Shown in pieces: positions 3,808 to 60,283 of a DNA stretch of 64,000 bases. Where the stretch lies: contig JBBSXB010000001.1 of the NCBI GenBank assembly GCA_038046005.1, positions 1 to 64,000 of the forward strand, given 5' to 3'. Position 1 is the stretch's first letter, and each line of letters begins with the position of its first letter. This stretch comes from Nanobdellota archaeon (GTDB lineage: Archaea; Nanobdellota; Nanobdellia; Pacearchaeales; GW2011-AR1). The position numbers were made by a program, and so were the translations under genes. The notes below the pieces were generated by a model. It saw only the letters and a list, made by a program, of their open reading frames with translations, was not told where the DNA came from and did no database searches.

Positions 3808-3808
3808 G

Positions 3809-4261
3809 ATGATCATAAGAAAAATAAAAAGGACAGAAATTGACGAGGTTTCTAAGATAGTTGGAAAAAATTATAAAAAGATTTATGAAAAACTTTGTAA
3901 AAAAGAATTAGGTTCCATGTTTATAGACAAGGTTTTGCCACCAGAGTATTTAATTGCTGAGGAAAAAGGAAAAATAGTGGGTTTTGCTGGTTACTCACAG
4001 TCATGGATAGATTATAAAATTTATGAAATTTTTTGGGTGAATGTTAATCCTGCTTTTCAAAATAATGGTATTGGCACAATAATAGTAAAAAAAGTAATAG
4101 ATAAAATAAAAAGTAAAAAAGGGAAAACTAAATCTTGTTCAATGATTTTATTAACTACAAAAAATCCTAATTTTTATAAAAAAAGATTTAAATTTAAAAC
4201 CATTGCAAAAGTTAGTAAAAAAAGATATGATCTCATGGCTTTAAATTTGGAGAAAAGATAA
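3809..4261 (+). CDS. GNAT-family acetyltransferase
   Basis: VNPAFQNNGIGT motif A; FYKK-F-F C-terminal motif. Confidence 0.85.
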   Translation: MIIRKIKRTEIDEVSKIVGKNYKKIYEKLCKKELGSMFIDKVLPPEYLIAEEKGKIVGFAGYSQSWIDYKIYEIFWVNVNPAFQNNGIGTIIVKKVIDKIKSKKGKTKSCSMILLTTKNPNFYKKRFKFKTIAKVSKKRYDLMALNLEKR

Positions 4262-4264
4262 AAA

Positions 4265-7175: not shown

Positions 7176-7227
7176 ATGTATTTTGAAGAACAATAATTAT
7201 TAAAAATGGATTCTTTATGGGTTAGCT

Positions 7228-7593
7228 ATGAAAACAAACACCCTGTATGAAGATTCTCAAATAAGAGTAACATATTTGCTTAGCCCCGAAACAGGAAAAG
7301 AAGAAGACATTATTAGTGCAGAAGATCATGAGTTGTGGGTTAAAGAAAGGCGTGGAGAGTGGAATAGGTATATGATTGGTAGAGGAATTTTAAAAGAGTT
7401 GGCGAGAACTTCGAGAGAGGACCGGGGGAGAAAATTAGAAACAATACATCCTGGAATAAGGATAGAATTAGAATTGCTTGGAACTGGGTTAAATATTGAT
7501 TCTCTTGGAGTTGCCATTAGTCAGGCTTATATTGAAGATGAAGAAAGATCTGAGGGGTCTAGGAGAACTGGAGCACCTTTCCAAAGCGATTGA
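7228..7593 (+). CDS. Orphan hypothetical protein
   Basis: 121-aa ORF with its own TATA-like element. Confidence 0.6.
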   Translation: MKTNTLYEDSQIRVTYLLSPETGKEEDIISAEDHELWVKERRGEWNRYMIGRGILKELARTSREDRGRKLETIHPGIRIELELLGTGLNIDSLGVAISQAYIEDEERSEGSRRTGAPFQSD

Positions 7594-7632
7594 TTAATAG
7601 TCGGAATCTTTATAAACCTACAAAACGCTCTT

Positions 7633-8337: not shown

Positions 8338-8670
8338 ATGGCAATAAGAAGATATGAATTTTATAAAGGAAAAGAGTCTAAAGAAAGACTAGATTCAAAT
8401 GACGTTCTAAAAGTAATCAGAAGTATTCCAGTAGAAGAATTAGAAACATATGGTTTTTCAGTAGAAGAACGAGGTGATAGTTTAAGATTAATTGGAAGGC
8501 ATACTCCGAGAGCGGGAGGTTTTAGCAGTTGTGTTATAGGAGGATTTTCAGATAACGAATTACGTATGTCTACAAATGAAGATTGTGTTACTGTCAGTAG
8601 GTATATCTCTAACTTATCCCAATTATTAAACCATAAAGGATTAAATACGAGCTTAATAGAGAGGATATAA
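8338..8670 (+). CDS. Orphan hypothetical protein inserted between rpl39e and rpl31e
   Basis: 110-aa ORF tightly packed between two r-protein genes. Confidence 0.65.
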   Translation: MAIRRYEFYKGKESKERLDSNDVLKVIRSIPVEELETYGFSVEERGDSLRLIGRHTPRAGGFSSCVIGGFSDNELRMSTNEDCVTVSRYISNLSQLLNHKGLNTSLIERI

Positions 8671-9245: not shown

Positions 9246-9276
9246 GGTTTATTAATTCTAAATTAATCCAATCTTC

Positions 9277-9678
9277 ATGAAAAAAGTCCTTTGTTTTGGG
9301 ACGTTTGATATCTTACATGAAGGTCATAAAAAGTTTTTAATAGATGCTAAAAAACAAGGAGATTTTCTTATTGCGAATGTTATCAGTGACAAAGCTGTTT
9401 TAGAAAATAAAAAAATAAAACCAATAAACAATCAAAGAAAAAGAGCATTAAATTTGAAAAAATTAAATATCGCAAACAAAATAATAGCAGTTTCAGATGA
9501 TAATACCAAAAATTTCCTATTAATAAAGAACATTAATTCAAAAGTAATCGCTATTGGTTATGATCAAAAATCAAATTTTATAGATGAGCTAAAGAATTTC
9601 TTAAAGAAAGAGGGGCTAAAACCAAGGTATTATGTCTCAAAGGAATTGGGGGGAATTCATTCCAGTCATCTAAGATGA
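9277..9678 (+). CDS. ribL: FAD synthase/cytidylyltransferase family protein
   Basis: GTFDILHEGH, GYDQ, IHSS. Confidence 0.75.
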   Translation: MKKVLCFGTFDILHEGHKKFLIDAKKQGDFLIANVISDKAVLENKKIKPINNQRKRALNLKKLNIANKIIAVSDDNTKNFLLIKNINSKVIAIGYDQKSNFIDELKNFLKKEGLKPRYYVSKELGGIHSSHLR

Positions 9679-9996
9679 TGGGTCTTTCTTAAATCTATTT
9701 GCGTCTCGGCCGTAATGTTTTTCTTGCATAACTTTGTCCTAAGCTTCTTGCAAATTAATTTTCTGGGAATTCGCCATGCAAACTACAGTAAACATAACAT
9801 CTATTAACTCGTCCTGTAATTCTTTTTTAGCCTCGCTGTCTTTCTTTTTCTTTGTACCAAAAAGATGATTAATTTCTCTAGCAACTTCACCAGTTTCTTC
9901 AGCTAATCTTGCAACAATTTCATGTGGCGGCCAATATTTAGGAGTAAATTGAGAAGCCCATTTGTCAACATCATCTTGAATATCTTTTAAGGACAT
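9670..9996 (-). pseudogene. MazG/YpjD-like nucleotide pyrophosphohydrolase with an in-frame TAG
   Basis: RLAEETGEVARE, ELIDV; reading frame continues QEA*DKVMQEKHYGRDANRF past the TAG at 9739-9741. Confidence 0.75.
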
Positions 9997-10636: not shown

Positions 10637-10686
10637 GTTTGTGTGAAAAAGATAAAGTATAAAAATATATTCCTATTTTTTATATA

Positions 10687-10896
10687 ATGGCATTAAACGA
10701 AAAATGTACCATGGACAACCCAGAAAAATTAAGATGGTATAATCTCACTATACCCTTACTTGGCCCAATTTTGTACATGGACAGAAATAGCCCCCCAAAC
10801 GATTTTAAGATTGTTAAAAGGGGTTTGACCTCTGTTATTACAAGTACAGGACTTTTTGGTTTAGTTAGTGCAGGAATTTATTACTGGAATAAATAA
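10687..10896 (+). CDS. Small orphan membrane protein
   Basis: 69 aa with two hydrophobic segments. Confidence 0.5.
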   Translation: MALNEKCTMDNPEKLRWYNLTIPLLGPILYMDRNSPPNDFKIVKRGLTSVITSTGLFGLVSAGIYYWNK

Positions 10897-15224: not shown

Positions 15225-15806
15225 ATGAAACACTTCATATATTTTTCAAAAAGTGCTAGAACATCTGGGAACTTTGATACTAGCAGATTAATGGATGCTG
15301 GAAGAATGGATATTGCAATACACAGTTTTATACAAGGAGTTTTTCTAAGTCATGACTTCAGGAAAGACGTTAAATTTCATTTTGTTTTTTATGGAAGCCC
15401 TGATCCGCCAAAACACATTGAAATACAAGTAAAAGATGATCTTGAAATATCTAAAAAAGATGTTGCAAATTTAATAAAGAAACTTTTGTATAAATACAAG
15501 CCCGGACAGAAAAACGAGGCTCTTCCTGGCTGTTTTATTGAAAAAAAAGGTTTTTTGCCTTTAGTTGAGCAGCTTAAAGATGAAGGGTGTGAAATTTTTA
15601 TTCTCGATAAAAAAGGAGAAGATATAAGAAAAGCTGAAATTTCGAAAGAGCCTGTTTTTATTTTAGGAGACCAAGATGGGTTGCCAAAGAAAGAGTTGAA
15701 GAGGTTAAAGCAAATTGCAACTCCTGTGACGGTGGGCCCTAAAATTTATTTTGCTTCTCAAGTCGTTGCAATAGTCAATAATGAAATGGACAGAAGAGAA
15801 CAATAA
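15225..15806 (+). CDS. trmY: tRNA (pseudouridine54-N1)-methyltransferase (SPOUT)
   Basis: AGRMD, FLSHDFR, FILGDQDG, VGPKIYFASQ..NEMD. Confidence 0.9.
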   Translation: MKHFIYFSKSARTSGNFDTSRLMDAGRMDIAIHSFIQGVFLSHDFRKDVKFHFVFYGSPDPPKHIEIQVKDDLEISKKDVANLIKKLLYKYKPGQKNEALPGCFIEKKGFLPLVEQLKDEGCEIFILDKKGEDIRKAEISKEPVFILGDQDGLPKKELKRLKQIATPVTVGPKIYFASQVVAIVNNEMDRREQ

Positions 15807-15838
15807 TTTTTATAGATTAGCAAATTAAATATATTAAA

Positions 15839-16030
15839 ATGATAAATCTAGGCGAAAAATGTTCGGCGCCAGACTGTGATTACAAAATCACTAAAAAAGG
15901 TGCAATAGACCATAAAGGAAGAATGTATTGTTGCGGAGAGTGTGCATATATAATTCTTTCAGGAGAGGGGGAAGAATCTCCTATAGATTGTTTTAACCAG
16001 ATAAGCCTTGTAAAAGACAAATATGTCTAA
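15839..16030 (+). CDS. Small Cys-rich putative metal-binding orphan
   Basis: C-x4-C ... YCCGEC. Confidence 0.55.
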   Translation: MINLGEKCSAPDCDYKITKKGAIDHKGRMYCCGECAYIILSGEGEESPIDCFNQISLVKDKYV

Positions 16031-20762: not shown

Positions 20763-20942
20763 ATGGTTAAAGCAGAATTTATGGATATTTTTGGAGTAAT
20801 TGGATTTTTAATTTTATTAATTACTGGAATTTCTATAATAAAAGAAGTTAAATTAGCTTCATTGATAATTATAATTATTAGCTCTTTAGGATTAATTGTT
20901 GATAGTTACATTGTGATTAAAACTTTTATCTTAAAAAAATAA
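20763..20942 (+). CDS. Small two-TM membrane protein (below the ORF-track length cutoff)
   Basis: MVKAEFMDIFGVIGF...LGLIVDSYIV, 59 aa. Confidence 0.55.
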   Translation: MVKAEFMDIFGVIGFLILLITGISIIKEVKLASLIIIIISSLGLIVDSYIVIKTFILKK

Positions 20943-20982
20943 AAATCGCAAAAACCAATTGGAGTTGAATAAGTTAAAAAAT

Positions 20983-21198
20983 TTAATGAAAATTGTCTAA
21001 TAAGTAATCATTAATCTTACGAGGTATAGAGGTAATGTAATCCCATACGGAAAAATCACCATTGACAACGTCTTTAATATCAGGTTTACACTTAAAATAA
21101 ACAGAAGAGCCTAGGCTGACTAATCCTCGCGGGAGGGGTTCAATACGAAGTTGACCATCTTCACAAGTCACATCTATAGTATTCTTAGATTCCCTCAT
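20983..21198 (-). CDS. Hypothetical protein
   Basis: 71-aa ORF divergent from the histone gene. Confidence 0.45.
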   Translation of the reverse strand: MRESKNTIDVTCEDGQLRIEPLPRGLVSLGSSVYFKCKPDIKDVVNGDFSVWDYITSIPRKINDYLLDNFH

Positions 21199-21248
21199 TT
21201 TAATTAAGGTTAGATAAAGTATAAAAATATATCTTTGTTCTATAACTC

Positions 21249-21434
21249 ATGACGCTAATAGTTAAATCAAACATAAAAAAAGTTGTTTCTGATTTGGATA
21301 AGGAAAAAGCTGTAACTAGTGTTGCAGATGAGGTTGGAATGGCTCTTGAAAGAAAAGTTGAAGAAGTTTTGAGAGATGGAATAAAAAGAGCCAAGGAGAA
21401 CGGAAGAAGAACATTACAGGCTAGGGATTTATAA
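21249..21434 (+). CDS. Histone-fold protein (short alpha-3 type)
   Basis: LIVKSNIKK..RAKENGRRTLQARDL. Confidence 0.85.
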   Translation: MTLIVKSNIKKVVSDLDKEKAVTSVADEVGMALERKVEEVLRDGIKRAKENGRRTLQARDL

Positions 21435-21435
21435 T

Positions 21436-22044
21436 ATGGAATGGTATAATTTAATTTTGGCTATTTTTGGAATTATTGCATTAATCTTTTTTGCTTATAA
21501 GACATTAGTACTTCCTCCAGTTAACTCCCATTTACAAGAAGCAATTCAAAACAATGAAACAAAAAATATTGAGTATATTATAATTTCTGATTATAAATCC
21601 AAAGGAGGATTTATAGCAAATAATAAAATTGAATCTAAAATAAAAATAATCTCCAGAGAAAAAGATTTTAGAGAGATTAAGGATATAATGATTTGGTTTG
21701 GGGGAATAAATACGAACGCCTATGTCTTGCCTATAGAAGAAGAGGGGGGTTATGGGATGAGAAAAAGCCCTATTGCTAGTTTATCTGATGTAAAAATAGA
21801 TAACAGCTACAAAACGTTAGAGACCAATTCAAATTTTAGATTTGATATACCTGGAGAATATCCTCCTTACTATATTAGGTTAGAGTACAAAGATGGAACT
21901 TTCTATAATTGGCATTCTAGTAAGAAAATTGTTATAGAACCACATAGTAGAATGACTGAATTACAAAATTATAGATTAACTGCTATTGCTTTGTTAATTG
22001 CCATAATTGGTATATTTGTTGGACTAAAATTCAGCAAAAATTAA
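21436..22044 (+). CDS. Membrane-anchored hypothetical protein
   Basis: N- and C-terminal TM helices. Confidence 0.65.
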   Translation: MEWYNLILAIFGIIALIFFAYKTLVLPPVNSHLQEAIQNNETKNIEYIIISDYKSKGGFIANNKIESKIKIISREKDFREIKDIMIWFGGINTNAYVLPIEEEGGYGMRKSPIASLSDVKIDNSYKTLETNSNFRFDIPGEYPPYYIRLEYKDGTFYNWHSSKKIVIEPHSRMTELQNYRLTAIALLIAIIGIFVGLKFSKN

Positions 22045-22068
22045 AAACTCGCCCTATCTAATCTTGTT

Positions 22069-42295: not shown

Positions 42296-42754
42296 TTATT
42301 TTGAAGTCCTTAATCGTTCAAATTCTTGCTTAAGCCAAGGAATGTAAAAATCCAACCCTATCTTTTGTCTTTCAGCTAAGGCTTTGATTATTTCTTCTTC
42401 ACCTACGAATGCAGATTCTGCTACATAAGTCGTGATTGGTTCTAAAGAAATATTTGGCATTCTGACTATTTCAAGATCGGGAGAATATAATCCTATTGTT
42501 CCTCTATTAGTTAAAAGATATTTTTTGACTTCACTATTATTAGAAAAGATTAAGTATAAATCTTCAGCGACCCCACAGGGATTTGGCAGCTTTCCAGCCA
42601 TAAGTTTTTCTTTAGCTTGAGTGATTAAAAAAGGTGGTGTAAGCACTTCATTCGAGGAGTTATCAAAAGCAACAAAATCTCCAGGATTGATGTCTAAATC
42701 TTCAAGGCTTCTTCCATCACCATAAACAATCCTTTTAACTAGCTCGTTAGACAT
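42296..42754 (-). CDS. Orphan hypothetical protein
   Basis: 152-aa ORF, TAATG-coupled to the upstream gene. Confidence 0.6.
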   Translation of the reverse strand: MSNELVKRIVYGDGRSLEDLDINPGDFVAFDNSSNEVLTPPFLITQAKEKLMAGKLPNPCGVAEDLYLIFSNNSEVKKYLLTNRGTIGLYSPDLEIVRMPNISLEPITTYVAESAFVGEEEIIKALAERQKIGLDFYIPWLKQEFERLRTSK

Positions 42755-44490
42755 TATTTTTTAAGAATAATTTTATTTTTTCTTGTAACTCTTATTGCAA
42801 CAACTATGATTAATATGACTAACACAAGATTAACAAGCCCCAAAACCCACAAATACCAATTGTCTCCGAACAATCCTGAAAGACTTGTTTTTGATCCTGT
42901 AATGAATATTGAAACTGGCTGATTTGCTACAAGCTGGTTTCCTGATGTTGCTTCTATATTGAATAATTGATCACCCGAAGCATCTTCCTTCACGTCGAAA
43001 ACAAATTTAACGTTTCCAGATTGGCCTGGAGATAGGGTCAATGAATCTTTGTCCAGGTTTACAGAGTTAGCCCATTGCGCAAAGCCCACAGCATTTAATG
43101 ATAATAATAGTTGTTTATTTCCAGTATTAGTTATAACTGCATTTATTGACAAAGGCTGTCCGGCTTTTCCGCCCGATGCAAGGTCTGCTGAAACTACAAC
43201 GGTGTCTCCTGTCTCTGATGGAGTACTACAGGATCCGACCTTGAATAAAATTGAGTAAATTGCCTCATCATTATTTTTGTTTTCAAAAACATTTGAATCT
43301 TCGTCATATACATAAAAGCTTGCTATGTAACTTTTAGGAGTTGTGTTTTGGGGGATAGGAATCTGAAAATCAACTTTTTTGCTGTCAAATGAATTTATGC
43401 TTCCAACATCAAAAATCTTTTTGAAATCGCCCAAGTCTTTAACAGCAACACCAACAGTTATCTTGTCTTGGTCTCTTGTCCCTATATTCCATGTATTAGC
43501 AGATATTGTCAAAGTATCCCCGCAGGACACGGTGTCTGGAACTTTAAAGTCTGTTAAGGTTACAAAATCTCTATCAATGATCATTTCAATATCTCTTGAA
43601 GTATAATCACAAGTCCTGTTCCCTTTAAAATCTCCTTGGTCTATGTCGCCGATTATTCTAGCATAAATAATATAGTTGTGGTTTCTGTCTAAGTCAGTTA
43701 GATCAACGTCTAAATCACTTTCATCAACAGTAAGAGAAATTGTGTAAGTATCCTCATCTCCATCACTAAGGTCAAAATTATCTTCTTCGCTAACTTCTTT
43801 TATCCAGTCTCCAGCATCCTGGTCATATATACCCCATTCAAGAGAAATGTCAGTTACATCATCATTTGCATCATTATTTTCTACTTTTATTTCAAATTCA
43901 ACTTCATCAAAAGGATACCATTTTCCACCACTTCCAGATCCACTTTTTACATCAAGATTATGAATGCTAACACCCAAATTTCCTTGATTTTCGCTAACTC
44001 CATGGCTGTAAACACAAAAATTTCCGGAAGTTTTGAAATCATCGTTGTTGGTTGAAGATTGAGTTACTGTAAGAATGATTGGCAAACTAAAAAAACTATA
44101 ATTAGTGTCATTTGTGTATTTTCCCGAAAGAATTAAATTCCCAGTATATGTCCCTATTGGTTGATTAGGGGGGACATTGAATGCTAAAGACATAGACCCA
44201 CTAGTTGTATTTTGATTTAAAGAAGGTATTACCCCACTTATGATTGACACTGAGTTAAGAGGGTTAGATGAGTCTTTAGCTAATGTTATGGGAGTGTTAA
44301 AAGTTATATTAGCCAAATTACCCTGCCCACTTTCTTTTGCTTGAAAAGAAACTATAACAGAATTACCCTGCATTACAGTAGTTGCAGTGTTTGCAGTGTT
44401 AACAAAAGCTACTGCCGCACTAGTTAATCCACTAAAAGCTGCAATTAACATTAATCCAGCAAAAATTAAAAGTAAATTCTTGTTTTTCAT
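42754..44490 (-). CDS. Putative second S-layer/surface protein with Ig-like (CARDB-like) domains and C-terminal TM
   Basis: Signal peptide, acidic beta-rich domains, WNIG/TNTG, WYLW..TM-basic tail. Confidence 0.8.
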   Translation of the reverse strand: MKNKNLLLIFAGLMLIAAFSGLTSAAVAFVNTANTATTVMQGNSVIVSFQAKESGQGNLANITFNTPITLAKDSSNPLNSVSIISGVIPSLNQNTTSGSMSLAFNVPPNQPIGTYTGNLILSGKYTNDTNYSFFSLPIILTVTQSSTNNDDFKTSGNFCVYSHGVSENQGNLGVSIHNLDVKSGSGSGGKWYPFDEVEFEIKVENNDANDDVTDISLEWGIYDQDAGDWIKEVSEEDNFDLSDGDEDTYTISLTVDESDLDVDLTDLDRNHNYIIYARIIGDIDQGDFKGNRTCDYTSRDIEMIIDRDFVTLTDFKVPDTVSCGDTLTISANTWNIGTRDQDKITVGVAVKDLGDFKKIFDVGSINSFDSKKVDFQIPIPQNTTPKSYIASFYVYDEDSNVFENKNNDEAIYSILFKVGSCSTPSETGDTVVVSADLASGGKAGQPLSINAVITNTGNKQLLLSLNAVGFAQWANSVNLDKDSLTLSPGQSGNVKFVFDVKEDASGDQLFNIEATSGNQLVANQPVSIFITGSKTSLSGLFGDNWYLWVLGLVNLVLVILIIVVAIRVTRKNKIILKK

Positions 44491-47501: not shown

Positions 47502-47547
47502 TTTTATTATTAGATATAAATCAAAAATTGCTTTTTAAAGGTTCTGT

Positions 47548-47901
47548 TTAGGAAGAAGTTAAGACTTCTAATTTTGATAAAACGAAATTGACTAGCTCTT
47601 TAGGAACAACTTCACACTCTTCCGTTTCAGAGAGAACTTTGGCTAAATTTCCAAACTCGGCTCCAGTAGCGATTAAAATGAAAGGATTATGAGTATCCAC
47701 ATCATTGGAAAATTTTTCTAAGTCTCTATTTGGAACTCTAACATAATCTCCGTCACGAGGGCAACTGACTAACCCATACATTTCCAAATTTGTAGTTAAA
47801 ACAATAGCGTGTTGCTTTATGTTAGGATTAGCCGTATCGAATCTAGCATATGCTAATTTTATACTTTCTATAGCGTTTGGTAATTGACTTGTATTTGCCA
47901 T
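47548..47901 (-). CDS. Orphan hypothetical protein downstream of tRNA-Pro
   Basis: ATG at 47901; the longer ORF-track start lies inside the tRNA. Confidence 0.6.
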   Translation of the reverse strand: MANTSQLPNAIESIKLAYARFDTANPNIKQHAIVLTTNLEMYGLVSCPRDGDYVRVPNRDLEKFSNDVDTHNPFILIATGAEFGNLAKVLSETEECEVVPKELVNFVLSKLEVLTSS

Positions 47902-47960
47902 AAAAAGAAAACTATTTATTGAGTTTTTAAAAGTTGTGGATTTTGGAATTTCTTTAATAA

Positions 47961-51481: not shown

Positions 51482-51520
51482 AAAATAAGATGGAAAGGGT
51501 TTTTAAGTGTTATTGATAAA

Positions 51521-51913
51521 TTAAGATTTTATCTGCTTTGGAAAATTTGACAATATTTCTTCTATAGAATTTTTTATTCTAGAATCCTCAAAGTCTTTGT
51601 GAATTGTTACTCTAAGCCAATTTATTTGTGCTTTATTTAGATTAGGATAACTAGCACCATGAGAAAATCTATTAAAATTATCATAAGCTTCTAAAATTAC
51701 TTCATAATATTTTGACCTATAAAATTCCCAATAATAAGCACTATTTTTTTCTCCATACACCTGTTCCACAGAAATTAAATTTTTTGGAGAAATTTGTACA
51801 GGATCTTGAAGAAACACTTTATTTTTGAAAAGTAAATAGATATTTTTTAAAGCATCAGGGGGTCTATCATACCACAGAACATCATTCAAAGTAATCACAA
51901 TCGGTTTTTCCAT
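51521..51913 (-). CDS. Orphan hypothetical protein between ftsZ and secE
   Basis: 130-aa ORF with its own TATA-like element. Confidence 0.6.
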   Translation of the reverse strand: MEKPIVITLNDVLWYDRPPDALKNIYLLFKNKVFLQDPVQISPKNLISVEQVYGEKNSAYYWEFYRSKYYEVILEAYDNFNRFSHGASYPNLNKAQINWLRVTIHKDFEDSRIKNSIEEILSNFPKQIKS

Positions 51914-51956
51914 AATGCTAAATAATTATAACATTTAAAAGAATTATTGTGGTCGA

Positions 51957-53063
51957 CTATTCTTCTTCGCCTTCAAAGAATTCTATTCCCAATTCTTCCT
52001 CAATTTCTTTGTGCTTTCTTTTTTCAAGGCTGTCTGTTGTTCCGAAAATCTGAGAACTTTTAACTCCTGTGACAATCAACAAAACTCTTATTGATTTTTC
52101 CATATCTGGAGAAATTTGAGCACCCCATATTAATTTTGCATCTGGGCTCAACTTTTCACCTATCCCGCCAATTATCGTTTTGCATTCTTCAAGACTCATG
52201 TCCGGACCGCCTATAACATTAACCAAAGCGCCAGTTGCATTAGAGATGTCAACATCTAGCAAAGGGTTTTGAATCGCTTTTTCAACAGCTTCAATAGCCC
52301 TGTTCTGGCCATCTGATTCTCCCATGCCTATAAGTGAAACCCCCCCATCAACCATTACAGCTTTTATGTCTGCAAAATCTAAGTTAACTAATCCAGTTGT
52401 TGTGACTAATTCAGTAACTCCCTTAACAGCATTGGTCAAGATTTCATCAGCGATTTTGAAAGCAGTGTGTAATGGAAGTTCTGGTGCCAATTCAAGAAGC
52501 TTGTCGTTTGGAATGACTATCAAAGTATCAACAACACCTTCAAGTCTTTCCAGTCCGTTCATTGCATTTTCTATTCTTTTCTTTCCCTCTATTGTAAAAG
52601 GAATTGTCACAACTGCTATTGTTAAAGCGCCTTGTTTTTTTGCGATACTTGCTATAAATGGAGCTGCTCCTGTTCCTGTTCCTCCGCCAAGACCGCATGT
52701 TATGAAAATCATATCTGCTCCTGCAAGTTTTTTCTTGATTTCCGATTCTGATTCTTTTGCAGCTTCTTCTCCAATTTTTGGATTACTGCCCGCCCCAAGT
52801 CCTTGCGTTAACTCCCGGCCAATTAATATTTTTTGATCAGCGCTGGCATAAAGCAAATCTTGAGCATCTGTATTAATAGCTATTAATTCTCCTCCCTTAA
52901 TTCCAATTTCTTTCATTCTGCTTAGAGAATTATTTCCTCCACCTCCAACTCCCACAATTTTTGTTCTTGCTGTTTGCTTTTTTATAAGCTCTGCTAACTC
53001 TTTATCAATTTCCCTAAGTTCTGGAGAAAGATCCGAATCATCTCCTTTAACCATATAACCCAT
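51957..53063 (-). CDS. ftsZ: Cell division protein FtsZ
   Basis: GVGGGG, NTDAQ, GGGTGTG, NLDFAD. Confidence 0.98.
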   Translation of the reverse strand: MGYMVKGDDSDLSPELREIDKELAELIKKQTARTKIVGVGGGGNNSLSRMKEIGIKGGELIAINTDAQDLLYASADQKILIGRELTQGLGAGSNPKIGEEAAKESESEIKKKLAGADMIFITCGLGGGTGTGAAPFIASIAKKQGALTIAVVTIPFTIEGKKRIENAMNGLERLEGVVDTLIVIPNDKLLELAPELPLHTAFKIADEILTNAVKGVTELVTTTGLVNLDFADIKAVMVDGGVSLIGMGESDGQNRAIEAVEKAIQNPLLDVDISNATGALVNVIGGPDMSLEECKTIIGGIGEKLSPDAKLIWGAQISPDMEKSIRVLLIVTGVKSSQIFGTTDSLEKRKHKEIEEELGIEFFEGEEE

Positions 53064-54212: not shown

Positions 54213-54213
54213 A

Positions 54214-54501
54214 ATGATAAATCTATTAGACTTATTGAGCAGAAGAGAGGGTGATGAAAGACGAATAGAAAGAGCTAAAAGTGAAGATGGAAGCTATAAT
54301 ATTGTTGAGAATTATTTGCAAGAGGGAAGGTTACTAGGAATTATTCCAGTAGTTGTTGAAATTGAAAGAACATATTTTCCAGCAGGAAGAGTTTTTGCAG
54401 CAATAAATCTTGGACATAAAGAAAAAGTTAAAATTAAAACTAATTTTTCAAAAGAGTATAGGAAACAATTAAATAAACTAAAAAGTGTAACTAATTATTA
54501 A
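54214..54501 (+). CDS. Orphan hypothetical protein between aIF5A and rpl40e
   Basis: 95-aa ORF, tightly packed. Confidence 0.6.
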   Translation: MINLLDLLSRREGDERRIERAKSEDGSYNIVENYLQEGRLLGIIPVVVEIERTYFPAGRVFAAINLGHKEKVKIKTNFSKEYRKQLNKLKSVTNY

Positions 54502-56193: not shown

Positions 56194-56505
56194 ATGGGAA
56201 AAATTTCAGAAAAACAATATACTTTTATGGTTGCAATTGTTGGGATTTTGATAGTTTTATCATTATTCTTAATCTTAAGTGACTTTATTGAATTTAGAAC
56301 AGGAAACGTTGCAAAAGACGTTCAAGGAAAAAGGGAATGTTTTGTTGGGACCTGTAATACTTATTACAGATGCGGCGAAGCCGGAAGTTTACAAAAGAAC
56401 ACATGCACAGTAAATAAAGAAAGCGGGACTTGTGATCCCATAGAACCACCAAACACATGCCAATTTGTTGAAGAAGTTTGTAACACGAAGAAAGTTATTT
56501 GTTGA
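56194..56505 (+). CDS. Small membrane-anchored Cys-rich protein
   Basis: N-terminal TM, RTGNV, eight Cys. Confidence 0.55.
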   Translation: MGKISEKQYTFMVAIVGILIVLSLFLILSDFIEFRTGNVAKDVQGKRECFVGTCNTYYRCGEAGSLQKNTCTVNKESGTCDPIEPPNTCQFVEEVCNTKKVIC

Positions 56506-56805
56506 TTATCTAGAAGGAACATATTCTGCTTCCCAAAAAGAACCTTTACAGCCTTTCAAAGATAATAATTTTAAGGCATTCATTAATTCAATTTGTTTTG
56601 TATTACCAAAAGTTAATTTTTCTAAACCTCTTTCTATATCTTTTATCCTGATAATTTTTCCAGAGTGAGTTTCGACATGAGGATCACGATTACTGTCTGG
56701 ACCTAATGGAAAAACAGCAAAATACCCCTTTATTTCCAAGCCTATTATCAAACTTTCTCTTTCAGAATCACTTAAATTTTGGTAAGTATCCCAATCAATT
56801 TTCAT
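56506..56805 (-). CDS. Orphan hypothetical protein
   Basis: ATG at 56805, immediately after the duplicated gene tail. Confidence 0.55.
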   Translation of the reverse strand: MKIDWDTYQNLSDSERESLIIGLEIKGYFAVFPLGPDSNRDPHVETHSGKIIRIKDIERGLEKLTFGNTKQIELMNALKLLSLKGCKGSFWEAEYVPSR

Positions 56806-56825
56806 TTCACAAATCAATAACTCCT

Positions 56826-56862
56826 TCTTCCGAAGTGTTTCACGGAGTAAACCTTCGCAGAA
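56826..56862. repeat. GC-rich palindromic hairpin (REP-like)
   Basis: CGAAG-T-GTTT-CACGGAGT-AAAC-CTTCG. Confidence 0.5.
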
Positions 56863-56863
56863 A

Positions 56864-57214
56864 TTATAAGTCTATGACACCCTCTTTTGTCAATGCAGCA
56901 AATCTAATTCCAACTGGAAAATTTATCAGCGCAGAAATCAAAGCCATGTGCTCTTTTCCTTCTCCAGAAGCTAAACTCAAAGCTACTTCCATGCCGCTAA
57001 TTTTTCCCTTGAGTTTTTCTGAAAATTCATCTCTAAGCTCTTTTATTTTTTTGCTAAAATCTACCTTAATAAATTCAAATGGTTTTTCATGCTTGAATTC
57101 TTTTGCAAAGTCATCTCCAAAAATAATTATCTTATCCCATTCTCCATACTTCATTAAACCAGAAACCTGCGCCCAGGTTCCCTTCCCAGTTGATAATAAA
57201 GCTACGAGTTCCAT
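56864..57214 (-). CDS. Hypothetical Rossmann-like (CARF-like) protein
   Basis: LVALLSTGKG..DKIII..VALSLASGEGKEH. Confidence 0.7.
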   Translation of the reverse strand: MELVALLSTGKGTWAQVSGLMKYGEWDKIIIFGDDFAKEFKHEKPFEFIKVDFSKKIKELRDEFSEKLKGKISGMEVALSLASGEGKEHMALISALINFPVGIRFAALTKEGVIDL

Positions 57215-57413: not shown

Positions 57414-57565
57414 TTTAAAAAGACAATAGTAGGATTTTTAAGCATTATTGTGATTTTTAAATTAGTAATCTTTATAAACCGATTTTATCTCAAGATTTAG
57501 TCGTTTGAACCATATCGTCATGGGATATATTCTATGTTCATGGCGCATAATCTGGGAGACATACA

Positions 57566-58195
57566 ATGGAACTTGAAGAAGAACTAAAGAAAGCTCTGAT
57601 AGAGCTAAGGAAAGGAAAAGAAAGAAAGTTTGATCAAACAGTTGACTTAATTGTAAATTTGCAAAAATTCAACATAAAAAAAGATTCTGTAAATATTTTT
57701 GTTAACCTCCCCCACAAGATAAAAAATAAAAGAATAGCTGCTTTTTTAGAATCAAAGAATTCTGCCATAGACACAATAACACAAGATGAGTTCAAAGGTT
57801 ATAGTGATAAAAAATCTTTAAAAAAACTTGTGAAAAGATTTGATTTCTTTATTTCCCAAGCCAGTTTAATGCCAAAAGTAGCCACTGTTTTTGGAAAAGT
57901 TTTGGGACCTGCTGGAAAAATGCCTTCCCCCCAACTTGGAATAATTATGAATGTTGATCAAAAAGCCCTAGAGGAATTAAAGGAAAAAATAAACAAAAGC
58001 GTAAGAATAAAGACAAAAGAAGCAAGTATAAAAATTTCAATAGGAAAACAAAGCATGGAAGATGAAAAGATAATTGATAATATAGTTACAATTTATAATT
58101 CTCTGATAAAAGCTCTTCCTAAACAAAAAGAAAACATAAAAAATGTAGAAGTTAAATTCACGATGACTAAACCCCAGAAAATAAGAATAAAATGA
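57566..58195 (+). CDS. rpl1: 50S ribosomal protein uL1
   Basis: RKFDQTVDL, LGPAGKMP, VKFTM. Confidence 0.96.
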   Translation: MELEEELKKALIELRKGKERKFDQTVDLIVNLQKFNIKKDSVNIFVNLPHKIKNKRIAAFLESKNSAIDTITQDEFKGYSDKKSLKKLVKRFDFFISQASLMPKVATVFGKVLGPAGKMPSPQLGIIMNVDQKALEELKEKINKSVRIKTKEASIKISIGKQSMEDEKIIDNIVTIYNSLIKALPKQKENIKNVEVKFTMTKPQKIRIK

Positions 58196-59019
58196 AATCT
58201 AAAGAAACAAAAAGAAAAATTCCAAAGAAAAAAATTGCTGAAGTTGAAAGTTTGAAAAACCTTATAAAAAGCAAGAAAACAATATTGATTGCATCTATAA
58301 AAAATATTCCCGCCTCGCAATTTCAAGAGATATCCAAAAGCCTGAGAGGAAAAGCTGTGGTTAAAGTCCCAAAAAAAAATCTAATAATAAGAGCCATAGA
58401 TTCCTCTGACAAAAAAGAATTAGAAGAATTAAAAGAAAGCATAAAAGAAAATACTACAATACTATTTTCGGATCTTGATGCATTCGATCTCGCTGCTGAG
58501 CTGATAAAAAATAAGAGTTATGCTAAGGCTAAAGCCGGCCAAGAAGCGCCTGAAGACATAGAAGTCCAGGAAGGGCCGACAGAATTAATTCCCGGACCAG
58601 CTATAAGTGAACTTGGAGCTCTGGGAATACAAATCCAAATTGAAAAAGGAAAAATCCACATTAAACAATCAAAAATTATTGCAAAAAAGGGCGAGAAGAT
58701 TTCACAGCCAGCCGCTGAAGTAATGGCGAAGCTTGACATCAAACCATTTGTCATATCCTTAATCCCACTAGCTGCTTTTGATAATACCGAAAACAAAGTT
58801 TACAAAGAGATAAATATTGACCCAGAAGGAACTTTGAATGGATTGAGAAACGCTTTCACAAGATCTTTGGCATTTGCAGTAAGTATTGCATACACTTGCC
58901 AGGGCACAATAAAATTACTTATAGCAAAAGCAGGGAGAAATGAAAAGGCTATTGAAAATTTGATGGTAAAAACTGATGTTCCGCAAGTAAATTCCGAGGA
59001 GGAAATTAAAAATGAGTAA
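58192..59019 (+). CDS. rpl10: 50S ribosomal protein uL10 (P0)
   Basis: AKAGQEAPEDI, PGPAISELGALGI, KLDIKP. Confidence 0.95.
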   Translation: MKSKETKRKIPKKKIAEVESLKNLIKSKKTILIASIKNIPASQFQEISKSLRGKAVVKVPKKNLIIRAIDSSDKKELEELKESIKENTTILFSDLDAFDLAAELIKNKSYAKAKAGQEAPEDIEVQEGPTELIPGPAISELGALGIQIQIEKGKIHIKQSKIIAKKGEKISQPAAEVMAKLDIKPFVISLIPLAAFDNTENKVYKEINIDPEGTLNGLRNAFTRSLAFAVSIAYTCQGTIKLLIAKAGRNEKAIENLMVKTDVPQVNSEEEIKNE

Positions 59020-59363
59020 ACAAGCGCTAGGAACATTTCCAGGATTTGATGAAGAGTTAGAAAGACTTAGAACCTTAGGACACGAAGCAATAATCTTGGG
59101 AAACAGAGAAGAAGTTCGTAGGATACTTAACGAAGATGTATATAATTTTTTATTCCAACAAGATCAATATCAAAGACAGCTTTATAGAACATTTAAAAAC
59201 TTTGCCGAAGAGAATCCTGAACTAAAACCAATTGTAGGGGAATATTTATCAAAATTAGAACAAAGCATCAGAAATAGGGCAGAAGCATTAAATTCTTGGA
59301 GTAATGATGTTAGGGGAAATCTAAAACTCTTTGAAGATTCAATAAAAGTAAATTCCGAGGAGG
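58985..59363 (+). repeat. Exact 18-bp direct repeat AAGTAAATTCCGAGGAGG flanking an orphan ORF
   Basis: Copies at 58985-59002 and 59346-59363. Confidence 0.9.
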
Positions 59364-59371
59364 GAAAATAA
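59012..59371 (+). CDS. Orphan helical protein inserted between rpl10 and rpl12
   Basis: 119-aa ORF ending in the same VNSEE as uL10. Confidence 0.7.
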   Translation: MSKQALGTFPGFDEELERLRTLGHEAIILGNREEVRRILNEDVYNFLFQQDQYQRQLYRTFKNFAEENPELKPIVGEYLSKLEQSIRNRAEALNSWSNDVRGNLKLFEDSIKVNSEEGK

Positions 59372-59661
59372 TGGAATATATATACGGAGCTTTATTGTTA
59401 CACAAACTTGGAAAAGAAGTTAGTGAACACAATTTGAAAAGTGTTATTGCGGCTACAGGAGCGCATACAGATGAGGGAAAAATAAAATCCCTTATTGCAA
59501 GTTTGAAGGGTGTTGACATAGATTTAGAATTAGCAAATGCTAGTTTAGTTTCGGCCGCACCTGCTCAAGGAAGTGCACCTGCACACGAAAAGCACGAAGA
59601 GAAAAAGCACGAAGAAAAGAAAGAAGCTGCTGCAGAAGGATTATCTGCTCTATTTGGTTAA
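59371..59661 (+). CDS. rpl12: 50S ribosomal stalk protein P1 (L12)
   Basis: MEYIYGALLLH..AEGLSALFG. Confidence 0.96.
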   Translation: MEYIYGALLLHKLGKEVSEHNLKSVIAATGAHTDEGKIKSLIASLKGVDIDLELANASLVSAAPAQGSAPAHEKHEEKKHEEKKEAAAEGLSALFG

Positions 59662-59743
59662 TTTTTATTTTAAGAGCAGGTAATCACAGACTTAGTTATA
59701 ACACTATAGTAATTCTTAAAAAAGGTCGAAATTTATTTTGTGT

Positions 59744-60210: not shown

Positions 60211-60283
60211 GCCTCTGTAGCTCAGTCAGAAGAGCAGTTGCTTCGTAAGCAAAAGGTCATGGGTGCAAATCCCATCAGAGGCT
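60211..60283 (+). tRNA. tRNA-Thr(CGT) with non-canonical D- and T-loops
   Basis: GCCTCTG/CAGAGGC-T; anticodon loop TTCGTAA; T-arm ATGGG-TGCAAAT-CCCAT. Confidence 0.88.

What the first reader, a model, noticed from the sequence alone, without database searches (positions are those of the whole stretch)
58985..59373. 361-bp gene cassette integrated at the rpl12 ribosome-binding site, with an exact 18-bp direct repeat
Seen: AAGTAAATTCCGAGGAGG at 58985-59002 and 59346-59363, in the same codon phase, so uL10 ends ..VNSEEEIKNE and the orphan ends ..VNSEEGK. Removing one repeat plus the intervening DNA gives uL10 ..PQVNSEEGK-TAATG-rpl12, a normal coupled junction. The repeat contains the SD GAGGAGG, so both the orphan and rpl12 keep an RBS. 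The cassette encodes only a 119-aa helical protein with no recombinase motif. Inference: a minimal non-autonomous element or circular cassette that integrates at an RBS in a highly expressed operon without disrupting it.
Basis: partly seen in the sequence, partly recalled or inferred. Interest (0 to 1): 0.8.

Follow-up and report, generated by a model that had tools for sequence, protein, structure and literature searches.

The report
Small gene inserted between ribosomal stalk genes
A tiny groundwater archaeon carries one extra small gene of unknown function slotted exactly between two essential ribosomal stalk genes, bracketed by a duplicated 18-letter ribosome-binding stretch, while its closest relatives still show the uninterrupted site.

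Summary
AAGTAAATTCCGAGGAGG occurs exactly twice in the window, 361 bp apart, bracketing a 119-codon ORF between archaeal P0 (uL10) and P1. Two distinct congeners (P0 90% identical) have the empty site, one with the exact 18-mer in single copy; a congener contig skips exactly these 361 bases.

The ORF is a real gene, not an orphan. It has five homologues among 1.84 billion representatives. Two further relatives sit in the same P0|P1 slot of distant lineages. The single-sequence model is a three-helix bundle with no informative fold or family match.

The slot is a hotspot: 19 of 106 related loci hold diverse small ORFs there, and one holds a LAGLIDADG endonuclease gene.

I found no hairpin, terminal inverted repeats or linked recombinase, so a self-mobile or circular cassette is not shown. 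My best reading is a recent recombinational insertion that duplicated the start signal of P1. The main rival is an older resident gene deleted in the sister clade.

Earlier notes of this scan report variable small genes at other ribosomal-operon junctions, in this genome and in others.

The parts
57566..58195 (+). Ribosomal protein L1 (uL1) gene, first gene of the L1-P0-P1 stalk operon
   Evidence: Pfam Ribosomal_L1, E 8.7e-34. It overlaps the P0 start.
58192..59019 (+). P0 (uL10) gene, 275 aa. Its last 8 codons (..NSEEEIKNE*) run through repeat copy 1 and the start region of the inserted gene.
   Evidence: Pfam Ribosomal_L10, E 1.8e-17, and RL10P_insert, E 2e-17. 90% identical to the P0 of congener G001.
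58985..59002 (+). Direct repeat copy 1 (AAGTAAATTCCGAGGAGG). It is the end of P0 and holds the SD for the inserted gene.
   Evidence: The same 18-mer is present once in the empty-site relative L039, and with one mismatch in L010/L040.
58998..59018 (+). Left junction 21-mer GGAGGAAATTAAAAATGAGTA: SD, 9-nt spacer, ATG of the inserted gene and the P0 stop codon.
   Evidence: It occurs once in the 875-kb genome. It is identical at the left junction of L073 and L076/L079, which carry unrelated ORFs. Its first 17 nt are the start module of P1 itself in the empty-site locus L043, and with one mismatch in five other empty-site loci.
59012..59371 (+). Inserted gene 'X', 119 aa, predicted three-helix bundle, member of a rare unnamed family.
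   Evidence: AlphaFold2 single-sequence model, mean pLDDT 78.3, helices 12-28, 32-67 and 69-117. Five homologues at 31-45% identity. No Pfam family. GC 32.8% against 33.4% for the genome.
59003..59363 (+). The 361 bp absent from congeners. The boundaries can slide anywhere within the repeat.
   Evidence: blastn against L040 and L039. Contigs in runs X6 and X7 join 59003 to 59365. Listed as an indel in the G000/G001 comparison.
59346..59363 (+). Direct repeat copy 2. It is the end of the inserted gene (..KVNSEEGK*) and holds the SD for P1.
59371..59661 (+). P1 (archaeal L12/P1 stalk protein) gene, 96 aa, ending in ..AAAEGLSALFG.
   Evidence: Pfam Ribosomal_60s, E 1.5e-08. 93.9% DNA identity to L040 over 59346-59739.

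Best explanation
This is a single-gene insertion into the stop/start junction of the ribosomal stalk genes P0 and P1 of a small-genome DPANN-type archaeon. The inserted gene belongs to a rare family of about 115-145-aa helical proteins, here called X. The event most likely happened in this lineage after it split from its sampled congeners. The route I think most likely is ordinary recombination rather than an element-encoded enzyme. Under this reading, DNA from a relative that already carried X in the same slot was joined on one side through the conserved P1 start region. On the other side it was joined at the short SD homology (GGAGG/GGAGGAAA). That would be homology-facilitated illegitimate recombination, or an equivalent two-step template switch. 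The joints were staggered, so 18 bp of the P0 end, including the SD, was duplicated. As a result P0 gets a new 5-codon end and stop. X is read from a P1-type start module that overlaps the P0 stop. X ends on the old P0 stop, which overlaps the P1 ATG. No promoter or terminator is needed and the stalk operon stays intact. X is probably a dispensable cytoplasmic accessory protein that gains strong co-expression from the operon; its biochemical function is unknown. Shown: the repeat, the indel against congeners, the coupled junctions, the existence of the X family and its recurrence in this slot, and the slot's variability. Inferred: the direction (gain), the recombination route, expression, and dispensability.
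For: 1. Empty site in the sister lineage. L010 (G001), L040 and L039 have P0 90% identical, P0 ends ..QVNSEEEK, and TAATG leads into P1. L039 has the exact 18-mer once. In the quick P0 tree these three form a starred clade (100) with the window, and the neighbouring rows L041, L048, L098 and L103 are empty.

2. Zero differences over 2 x 18 nt. Both window copies also equal the copy in L039, while the surrounding L1-P0 DNA is 84-85% identical to L039 and L040. The two bases just after the repeat differ in all three lineages. My own estimate is that this favours a young duplication over one older than the genus split by about 2- to 18-fold, depending on constraint.

3. The duplicated sequence is host sequence, namely the P0 tail of the genus.

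4. X is very sparse. There are 6 proteins at E <= 0.001, itself included, among 1.84 billion representatives. Only G055 besides G000 is convincing in samples of 401 family genomes and 401 order genomes. Where context is known for clear members, X sits in the P0|P1 slot: the window, L115 (E 2.7e-16) and G055/L119. Three of the five database homologues end in P0-tail-like ..Q..EE.K.

5. The start module of X is a P1-type module that is not the type used in the window's own genus. This fits import from another slot.

6. No element features were found. There are no inverted repeats at the ends, no hairpins, no Rfam match at or beside the junctions, no recombinase domain in X, and no Cas1 or Y1 transposase in the genome.

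7. Gene-sized indels at exact gene boundaries are the usual difference between the two congeners. I counted 80 extra segments in G000 and 21 in G001, and 59 of the 80 are filled at least 70% by one ORF. Boundary repeats of 11 nt or more occur in 6 of 101 indels against 6 of 2000 random placements. This is the pattern expected of short-homology recombination.

8. [quoted passage not shown]
Against: The direction is not proven. No donor was found, and the nearest X homologue is only 45% identical.

If the 18-mer is strongly constrained, being the SD plus a coding tail, its identity says little about age.

The left spacer could be an old copy of an ancestral P1 module. That would make the duplication older than the genus.

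P1 and its surroundings show no foreign patch; P1 is 93.9% identical to the congener. Any homologous crossover must therefore have been very close to the repeat.

[quoted passage not shown] I know of no demonstration in DPANN archaea (recalled; not searched).

No RNA run holds the stretch, so expression is untested.

Other occupied loci show no general left/right duplication.
Confidence: 0.55

Rival explanations
1. X is an old resident of the P0|P1 slot, a fast-evolving gene that was inserted, with duplication of the P1 start module, before the genus arose. The sister clade (L010/L039/L040) lost it by recombination or replication slippage between the two 18-bp repeats. That deletion regenerates a perfect P0-TAATG-P1 junction.
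For: Deletion between the repeats predicts the observed empty junction to within 1-2 bases. The start module of X matches a complete P0|P1 junction of another clade (L043) at about 31 of 33 positions by my own reading. The duplication could therefore once have covered the whole module, with the spacers diverging since. X relatives sit in the same slot in lineages whose P0 is only 63-68% identical, with X identities of 23-27%, as expected of vertical descent of a fast-evolving gene. There are weak hints that other helical slot genes are distant kin: L113 against P0004 at E 3e-4 in a 25-sequence set, and hhalign E 0.0018 but probability only 15%. G000 has 80 extra segments against 21 in G001, which could reflect reduction in G001.
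Against: It needs two events plus perfect preservation of 36 nt, while the flanks diverged by about 15%. In older occupied loci the two junction modules are not kept alike, so nothing visibly maintains such identity. The neighbouring lineages in the P0 tree lack X. X would have had to be lost in nearly all of the genomes searched in the family and order samples.
Confidence: 0.25
2. One reading: X plus one repeat is a minimal non-autonomous cassette. It would excise as a 361-bp circle and integrate at the P1 ribosome-binding module through a site-specific recombinase supplied in trans, as an archaeal counterpart of an integron cassette.
For: The duplication is exact and relatively long, 18 bp, which is the size of an attachment-site core. 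The same family recurs in the same slot in distant lineages. An identical 21-mer lies at the left junction of three unrelated slot genes. The slot also hosts a homing-endonuclease gene in L101. The genome encodes two tyrosine recombinases and one serine recombinase.
Against: There is no hairpin or inverted repeat at the ends. There is only one copy in the genome and none in viral contigs. The recombinases are on other contigs or 63 kb away, and one tyrosine recombinase is expected anyway as the chromosome-resolving Xer enzyme (recalled). The duplicated sequence is lineage-specific host sequence, not a conserved site. Other occupied loci lack matching left and right modules. The 17-mer of the shared left junction is explained by its being a natural P1 start module. 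The other single-gene indels of this genome are unrelated genes, including ordinary enzymes.
Confidence: 0.13
3. Assembly artefact: a chimeric join across an 18-bp repeat put foreign DNA into the operon.
For: Metagenome assemblies can misjoin at repeats. No laid contig of the window's own strain was shown across 59006-59345 (the tool states that a filter leaves some records out).
Against: Six runs from two studies hold 91-98% of the sampled 31-letter words of the 1001-bp stretch, and 31-mers are longer than the repeat. The exact protein is on record from 3 contigs. Both junctions are in-frame coupled gene boundaries. Homologues sit in the same slot in two independent assemblies.
Confidence: 0.02

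Closest known systems
Homology-facilitated illegitimate recombination and insertion-duplication scars (PMC3240628, abstract seen in the listing; PMC5361080, title and abstract start seen only)
   Same: Foreign DNA enters beside a conserved gene without any element-encoded enzyme. One joint is homologous and the other sits at a few bases of microhomology. A short piece of the target ends up on both sides of the insert.
   Different: It has been demonstrated in transformable or conjugating bacteria, not in DPANN archaea. Here the route is inferred from junction sequences only. No donor is known, and no foreign patch is visible in P1.
Integron gene cassettes (attC x attI, IntI) - recalled knowledge
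   Same: Promoterless single-ORF units are placed downstream of a strong promoter and expressed by the host operon. The content of a fixed slot varies between relatives.
   Different: There is no attC-like hairpin and no inverted repeats. No integrase lies next to the slot. There is one gene rather than an array. The host is archaeal. An 18-bp host duplication is not what integron recombination leaves.
Phage 'morons' and free-standing homing-endonuclease genes between conserved genes - recalled knowledge
   Same: An extra gene is wedged between two conserved syntenic genes and is present or absent among close relatives. The same slot holds a LAGLIDADG_3 endonuclease gene in L101, whose sister L045 is empty.
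   Different: X has no nuclease or DNA-binding domain. Morons as described carry their own promoter and terminator, whereas X is coupled stop-to-start on both sides.
Transposable elements and MITEs with target-site duplications - recalled knowledge
   Same: A direct duplication of target sequence flanks the inserted DNA.
   Different: There are no terminal inverted repeats, no transposase, a single copy, and an 18-bp duplication, which is longer than usual. The insert is a complete gene fused in frame to the duplicated target.
Variable small genes at other ribosomal-operon junctions of DPANN archaea (earlier notes of this scan), and DPANN-specific helical proteins 'typically in house-keeping context' (PMC6393860, Table 1 passage read)
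   Same: Small, mostly helical proteins of unknown function sit inside translation-gene operons of small-genome archaea. The L2|S19 insert of this genome is also missing from G001.
   Different: Those cases lack a long boundary repeat: local scores are 14, 11 and 11, within a background that reaches 20. X is not related to them by the searches I ran.

Membership tests
Archaeal ribosomal stalk operon L1-P0-P1 | Adjacent co-oriented genes with Ribosomal_L1, Ribosomal_L10 + RL10P_insert, and Ribosomal_60s domains | tested here: met
   The same order is found in all 30 genome loci.
Integron gene cassette | attC recombination site: an imperfect palindrome that folds as a hairpin at the 3' end of the cassette | tested here: not met
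   No inverted repeat at the ends. RNA folds of both junctions are no better than shuffles (z 0.88 and 0.53). DNA energy parameters were not tried.
Integron gene cassette | IntI-type tyrosine integrase and attI next to the insertion point | tested here: not met
   The only Phage_integrase matches are on contigs C4 and C11, not on C1.
Insertion sequence / MITE | Terminal inverted repeats | tested here: not met
   One search lists no inverted pair at 59003-59030 against 59320-59345.
Insertion sequence / MITE | Target-site duplication | tested here: met
   An exact 18-bp duplication of host sequence.
Insertion sequence / MITE | Multiple copies in the genome, or a transposase in the genome or in the element | tested here: not met
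   A single copy of X and of the 18-mer pair. No Y1 transposase or Cas1. DDE transposase families were not searched.
Homing endonuclease gene | LAGLIDADG, GIY-YIG, HNH or similar nuclease domain in the inserted ORF | tested here: not met
   No Pfam family for X. In contrast, the L101 slot gene matches LAGLIDADG_3 at E 4.1e-09.
Site-specific integrative element (Campbell type) | Circular intermediate carrying one copy of the repeat | not testable with these tools
   Only assembled contigs could be laid. Raw reads are needed.
Homology-facilitated illegitimate recombination product | Microhomology at the illegitimate joint | tested here: inconclusive
   GGAGG(AAA) is shared by the host P1 module and the start module of X. 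On the other side, TTCAA.AA is shared between the end of X and the congeners' P0. Both are short and A/T-rich, and the donor sequence is unknown.
Homology-facilitated illegitimate recombination product | Donor-derived sequence continuing into the homologous anchor | tested here: not met
   The P1 region is 93.9% and 92.9% identical to the congeners, higher than the flanks, with no foreign patch. A crossover inside or just right of the repeat would leave none.
Protein family X (this report) | Full-length similarity with the conserved motifs GN(R)..E...L..ED.Y..LF.Q.QY and L..W | tested here: met
   phmmer E from 1.3e-18 down to 2.7e-06 for five proteins. Alignment A1 has 10 invariant columns. 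The profile hits L115 at E 2.7e-16 and G055 at E 1.7e-7.

The most novel reading that the evidence does not exclude
The stop/start junctions of ribosomal-protein operons in these small-genome archaea act as natural expression slots. Under this reading, single promoterless genes move from slot to slot between lineages and copy the start module of the downstream gene as they enter. The system would be functionally analogous to an integron but would run on the conserved ribosomal genes, and possibly a dedicated recombinase, instead of attC and IntI. The window would hold its freshest known footprint, and family X would be a slot-specific passenger.
Probability: 0.15. Interest if true: 0.75.

Novelty: new variant of a known kind. 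Interest (0 to 1): 0.5.

Why it matters
The case shows, base by base, how an extra gene can enter an essential, tightly coupled operon without harm. Duplicating 18 bp of gene end plus Shine-Dalgarno gives both the newcomer and the downstream gene a start signal and a stop/start overlap.

Three further results put it in context. The P0|P1 junction is occupied in 19 of 106 related loci. About 100 single-gene indels separate two congeners. Earlier scan notes report similar slots at other ribosomal-operon junctions. Together these suggest that gene flux in these reduced genomes runs gene by gene at exact gene boundaries. Conserved ribosomal operons may serve as preferred landing places because they offer strong expression and, possibly, conserved homology arms.

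The result also defines a new small protein family. For annotators, it flags that P0 tails and small ORFs at this junction are interchangeable sequence.

Tried and rejected
Fold and feature searches for X gave nothing usable. Foldseek against PDB had no match at E <= 0.001; the best rows were 14-3-3 and hemerythrin-like helical bundles at E > 1. The ESM Atlas gave no hit by features and only generic helical matches by structure. Pfam gave nothing.

Searches for X elsewhere:
- The word-indexed search of 5.8 billion proteins found only X itself.
- Viral contigs held no relative.
Repeated with the smaller alignment A2, it found no relative.
- The weak hits G047 and G519 lie inside long frames (611 and 877 aa) and I did not follow them.

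Deep homology between X and the other helical slot genes is not established: hmmsearch E >= 0.002 in a 19-sequence set, and hhalign probability 15%.

A general left/right junction duplication in other occupied loci is rejected: mean score 9.47 against 9.35 for cross-locus pairs, permutation p 0.30. Three loci were left out of that test: L079 (a duplicate of L076), L101 and L015.

A conserved TAAAT promoter-like box upstream of P1 is not supported. Only the SD and A-richness are conserved by position in 93 distinct upstream regions.

The other three small inserts in this genome's large ribosomal operon have no boundary repeat above background.

Read laying showed no contig of the window's own strain over 58700-59345 in X1 or X2, although the index says they hold the stretch. 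The tool says a filter leaves records out, so nothing follows from this. No RNA run was available.

Rfam matched only a tRNA 850 bp downstream.

GC content gives no sign of foreign origin: 32.8% against 33.4%.

The careful tree search did not finish, so the quick IQ-TREE tree was used; its backbone is largely unresolved.

Full report
WHAT IS THERE

Window 57566-59661 holds the archaeal stalk operon. L1 lies at 57566-58195, P0/uL10 at 58192-59019 and P1 at 59371-59661, each confirmed by Pfam. A 119-codon ORF lies between P0 and P1 at 59012-59371.

The 18-mer AAGTAAATTCCGAGGAGG lies at 58985-59002 and 59346-59363. There is no third copy even with 3 mismatches allowed, and 0 of 100 shuffles gave two copies. 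Both copies are in the same codon phase. P0 therefore ends ..VNSEEEIKNE and the ORF ends ..VNSEEGK. The ORF's ATG overlaps the end of P0 (ATGAGTAA) and its stop overlaps the ATG of P1 (TAATG). The genome is 875 kb in 15 contigs and 98% complete. An earlier scan note calls the lineage Pacearchaeota; I did not test that label.

THE EMPTY SITE EXISTS

In 29 relatives' loci from species-representative genomes and 80 metagenome loci, I located the P0 stop and the P1 start.

The same-genus genome G001 (L010) and two metagenome contigs (L039, L040) have P0 90% identical. L040's P0 is identical to G001's. In all three, P0 runs ..QQVNSEEEK and TAATG leads straight into P1. L039 carries the exact 18-mer once, and L010/L040 carry it with one synonymous change.

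blastn of the window against L040 and L039 breaks exactly at the repeat: 57467-59005 and 59346-59739, overlapping by 21 nt on the relative. Assembled contigs of runs X6 and X7 join 59003 to 59365. They differ from the window at 54 of 304 positions, so they are the congener and not an empty allele of this strain.

Six runs from two studies hold 91-98% of the sampled words of the occupied form. The protein is on record from 3 contigs. Misassembly is therefore unlikely.

THE INSERTED GENE

It is not an orphan. The exhaustive HMMER search found five homologues (P0002-P0006, 31-45% identity, 115-143 aa) among 1.84 billion representatives. The word-indexed search had found only the query itself. The alignment has 10 invariant columns.

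A profile of the family hits the ORF in the P0|P1 slot of metagenome locus L115 at E 2.7e-16; that locus has P0 63% identical. It also hits the slot of genome G055 at E 1.7e-7; G055 has P0 68% identical. A weak member (E 1.5e-4) in G066 lies elsewhere, beside a 313-aa ORF that looks like a membrane protease by eye; I did not check this.

Three of the five database homologues end in P0-tail-like ..Q..EE.K. Their contigs could not be fetched.

The family was otherwise not found in two overlapping samples, 401 genomes of the family and 401 of the order. It was not found in viral contigs or in the genome-contig scan.

The single-sequence AlphaFold2 model is a three-helix bundle with mean pLDDT 78. 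It has no informative match in PDB or the ESM Atlas and no Pfam family. GC content is that of the host.

THE SLOT IS A HOTSPOT

Of 106 loci with both genes located, 19 (18%) have 100 nt or more between P0 and P1, and all 19 hold an ORF there. That is 7 of 30 genome loci, the window included, and 12 of 76 metagenome loci; L076 and L079 are identical. A further 10 loci have 20-99 nt, and 77 have 16 nt or fewer.

The occupants fall into several families:
- X: the window, L115, and G055/L119 found separately.
- L073, L113 and L016.
- L076 and L102, with L108 linked more weakly to L102.
- Several singletons.

None has a Pfam family except L101, a 369-aa LAGLIDADG_3 + HTH protein.

In the quick P0 tree, occupied and empty loci are interleaved, with close occupied/empty pairs: the window against L039/L010/L040, L051 against L078, and L101 against L045. 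The tree backbone is largely unresolved.

JUNCTION ANATOMY ACROSS LOCI

Positional conservation upstream of P1 is limited to the SD at -15 to -10 and to A-richness.

In 15 other occupied loci, the module before the insert and the module before P1 are no more alike than modules taken from different loci (mean 9.47 against 9.35, p 0.30). Only the window (20), L073 (18; a 14-nt GGAGGAAATTAAAA repeat) and L024 (16) stand out.

The highest cross-locus score was 28. By my reading of the printed sequences, it is L011's left module against L024's right module. If so, the ancestral P0 tail can end up on either side of an insert.

The window's left junction GGAGGAAATTAAAAATGAGTA occurs once in the genome. 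It is identical in L073 and L076/L079, which carry unrelated ORFs. Its first 17 nt are the P1 start module itself in empty loci of another clade: L043 exactly, and five loci with one mismatch. The window's own genus has a different spacer before P1. The inserted gene thus starts with a P1-type module of foreign type. I cannot fully explain this. Import from another slot is one reading. Convergence on a good RBS, plus the need for a P0 stop, is another.

NO ELEMENT MACHINERY

There are no inverted repeats at the ends and no stable fold at either junction. Rfam matched only a tRNA-Thr at 60211-60283. There is a single copy of X in the genome.

The genome has two tyrosine recombinases, on C4 and C11, and one serine recombinase at C1:122402. 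It has no Y1 transposase and no Cas1. None of these is linked to the slot.

GENOME-WIDE CONTEXT

I compared G000 with the whole of G001: 511 kb aligned at 81.6% identity. Inside collinear alignments there are 101 gene-sized indels, 80 extra in G000 (median 438 nt, 45.8 kb in all) and 21 extra in G001. Of the 80, 59 are filled at least 70% by one ORF.

Fourteen of the 80 lie in this window. Besides X, twelve of their ORFs were scanned against Pfam: nine have no family, one is a GNAT acetyltransferase, one is cytidylyltransferase-like, and one has a weak metallothionein-like match below the cut-off. The 59 ORFs are not paralogues of each other.

Boundary direct repeats of 11 nt or more occur in 6 of 101 indels against 6 of 2000 random placements. 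The window's 18 nt is the longest. The three small inserts in the large ribosomal operon otherwise show nothing above background.

READING

The 361 bp is a real single-gene presence/absence difference. I favour gain in this lineage (about 0.7 overall) for four reasons:
- The sister clade and the neighbouring lineages are empty.
- X is extremely sparse.
- The duplicated sequence is host sequence.
- Both copies are identical to each other and to L039, while the flanks are 84-85% identical.

The route I think most likely is recombination without a dedicated enzyme. One joint would sit in or next to the conserved P1 start region and the other at the SD microhomology, staggered so that 18 bp was duplicated. 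This corresponds to homology-facilitated illegitimate recombination as described for bacteria (PMC3240628, abstract in the listing), or to a two-step template switch.

This reading would also explain two patterns. Clear X members are found in the same slot, because conserved flanks favour slot-to-slot transfer. Ribosomal operons collect such genes, because they offer both strong expression and conserved anchors. Both points are inference.

The main rival is an older insertion lost in the sister clade by deletion between the repeats (0.25). The repeats are in any case a ready substrate for precise loss.

The function of X is unknown. Unrelated genes occupy the same slot, and congeners do without X. 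I therefore read it as a dispensable accessory protein that benefits from operon expression, not as a ribosomal component.

RELATION TO EARLIER NOTES OF THIS SCAN

Searches returned unchecked notes. Some describe variable small genes at other ribosomal-operon junctions of this genome. Others describe gene-end duplications flanking inserts in ribosomal operons of other small-genome archaea and CPR bacteria. I confirmed only that the L2|S19 insert is missing from G001. The wording 'homology-facilitated illegitimate recombination' came to me from one of those notes, and I then checked it against the literature listing.

Noticed in passing
window 3808-4263, 7178-7608, 8351-8668, 9246-9684, 10637-10875, 15798-16027, 20766-21255, 21434-22063, 42303-42761, 47544-47958, 51520-51957, 54213-54501, 56504-56870: Thirteen further segments of 230-630 nt are present in this genome but replaced by 30 nt or fewer in congener G001. 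Most are filled by a single ORF. One is a GNAT acetyltransferase, one is cytidylyltransferase-like, and nine of twelve scanned have no Pfam family. Genome-wide there are 80 such segments in G000 and 21 in G001.
   Followed up: partly
L101:1044-2314 (metagenome locus): The same P0|P1 slot holds a 369-aa LAGLIDADG_3 + HTH protein gene and a 54-aa ORF (a 1307-nt gap). Its closest relative in the P0 tree, L045, has an empty slot.
   Followed up: partly
window 58192-59019 and the P0 genes of L010-L118: P0 here and in most relatives ends without the ..GLSALFG tail that P1 keeps. Among the tails I printed, only L020 and L109/L105 end in ..GLASLFG or ..GLGALFG. From memory, archaeal P0 normally shares that factor-binding tail with P1, so its loss in this lineage may be worth a look.
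   Followed up: no
window 58998-59018; L073:1361-1381; L076:2680-2700; L043:1547-1563: An identical 21-mer lies at the left junction of three unrelated slot genes in distant lineages. Its first 17 nt equal the start module of P1 itself in empty-site loci of another clade. This is unexplained.
   Followed up: partly
window 60211-60283: A tRNA-Thr (anticodon CGT) overlaps the 5' end of the mechanically listed 656-aa helicase ORF (GTG at 60263). The true helicase start is therefore probably further downstream.
   Followed up: no
G000:C1:69864-70259 (L122:5864-6259): The 127-aa ORF between L2 and S19 is absent from G001. It is bounded by an 11-nt direct repeat, AAATTAAAATG, which is spacer plus start codon.
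   Followed up: partly
G000:C1:122402-124083: A serine recombinase gene (Resolvase, E 1.7e-43) lies next to 15-24-nt direct repeats spaced 466-1005 nt apart. This may be a small mobile element.
   Followed up: no
L051:3095-3160: The module before P1 in L051 contains a perfect 6-bp stem with a GAAA loop (AGCGAT-GAAA-ATCGCT), lying between the duplicated P0-tail motif and the SD.
   Followed up: no
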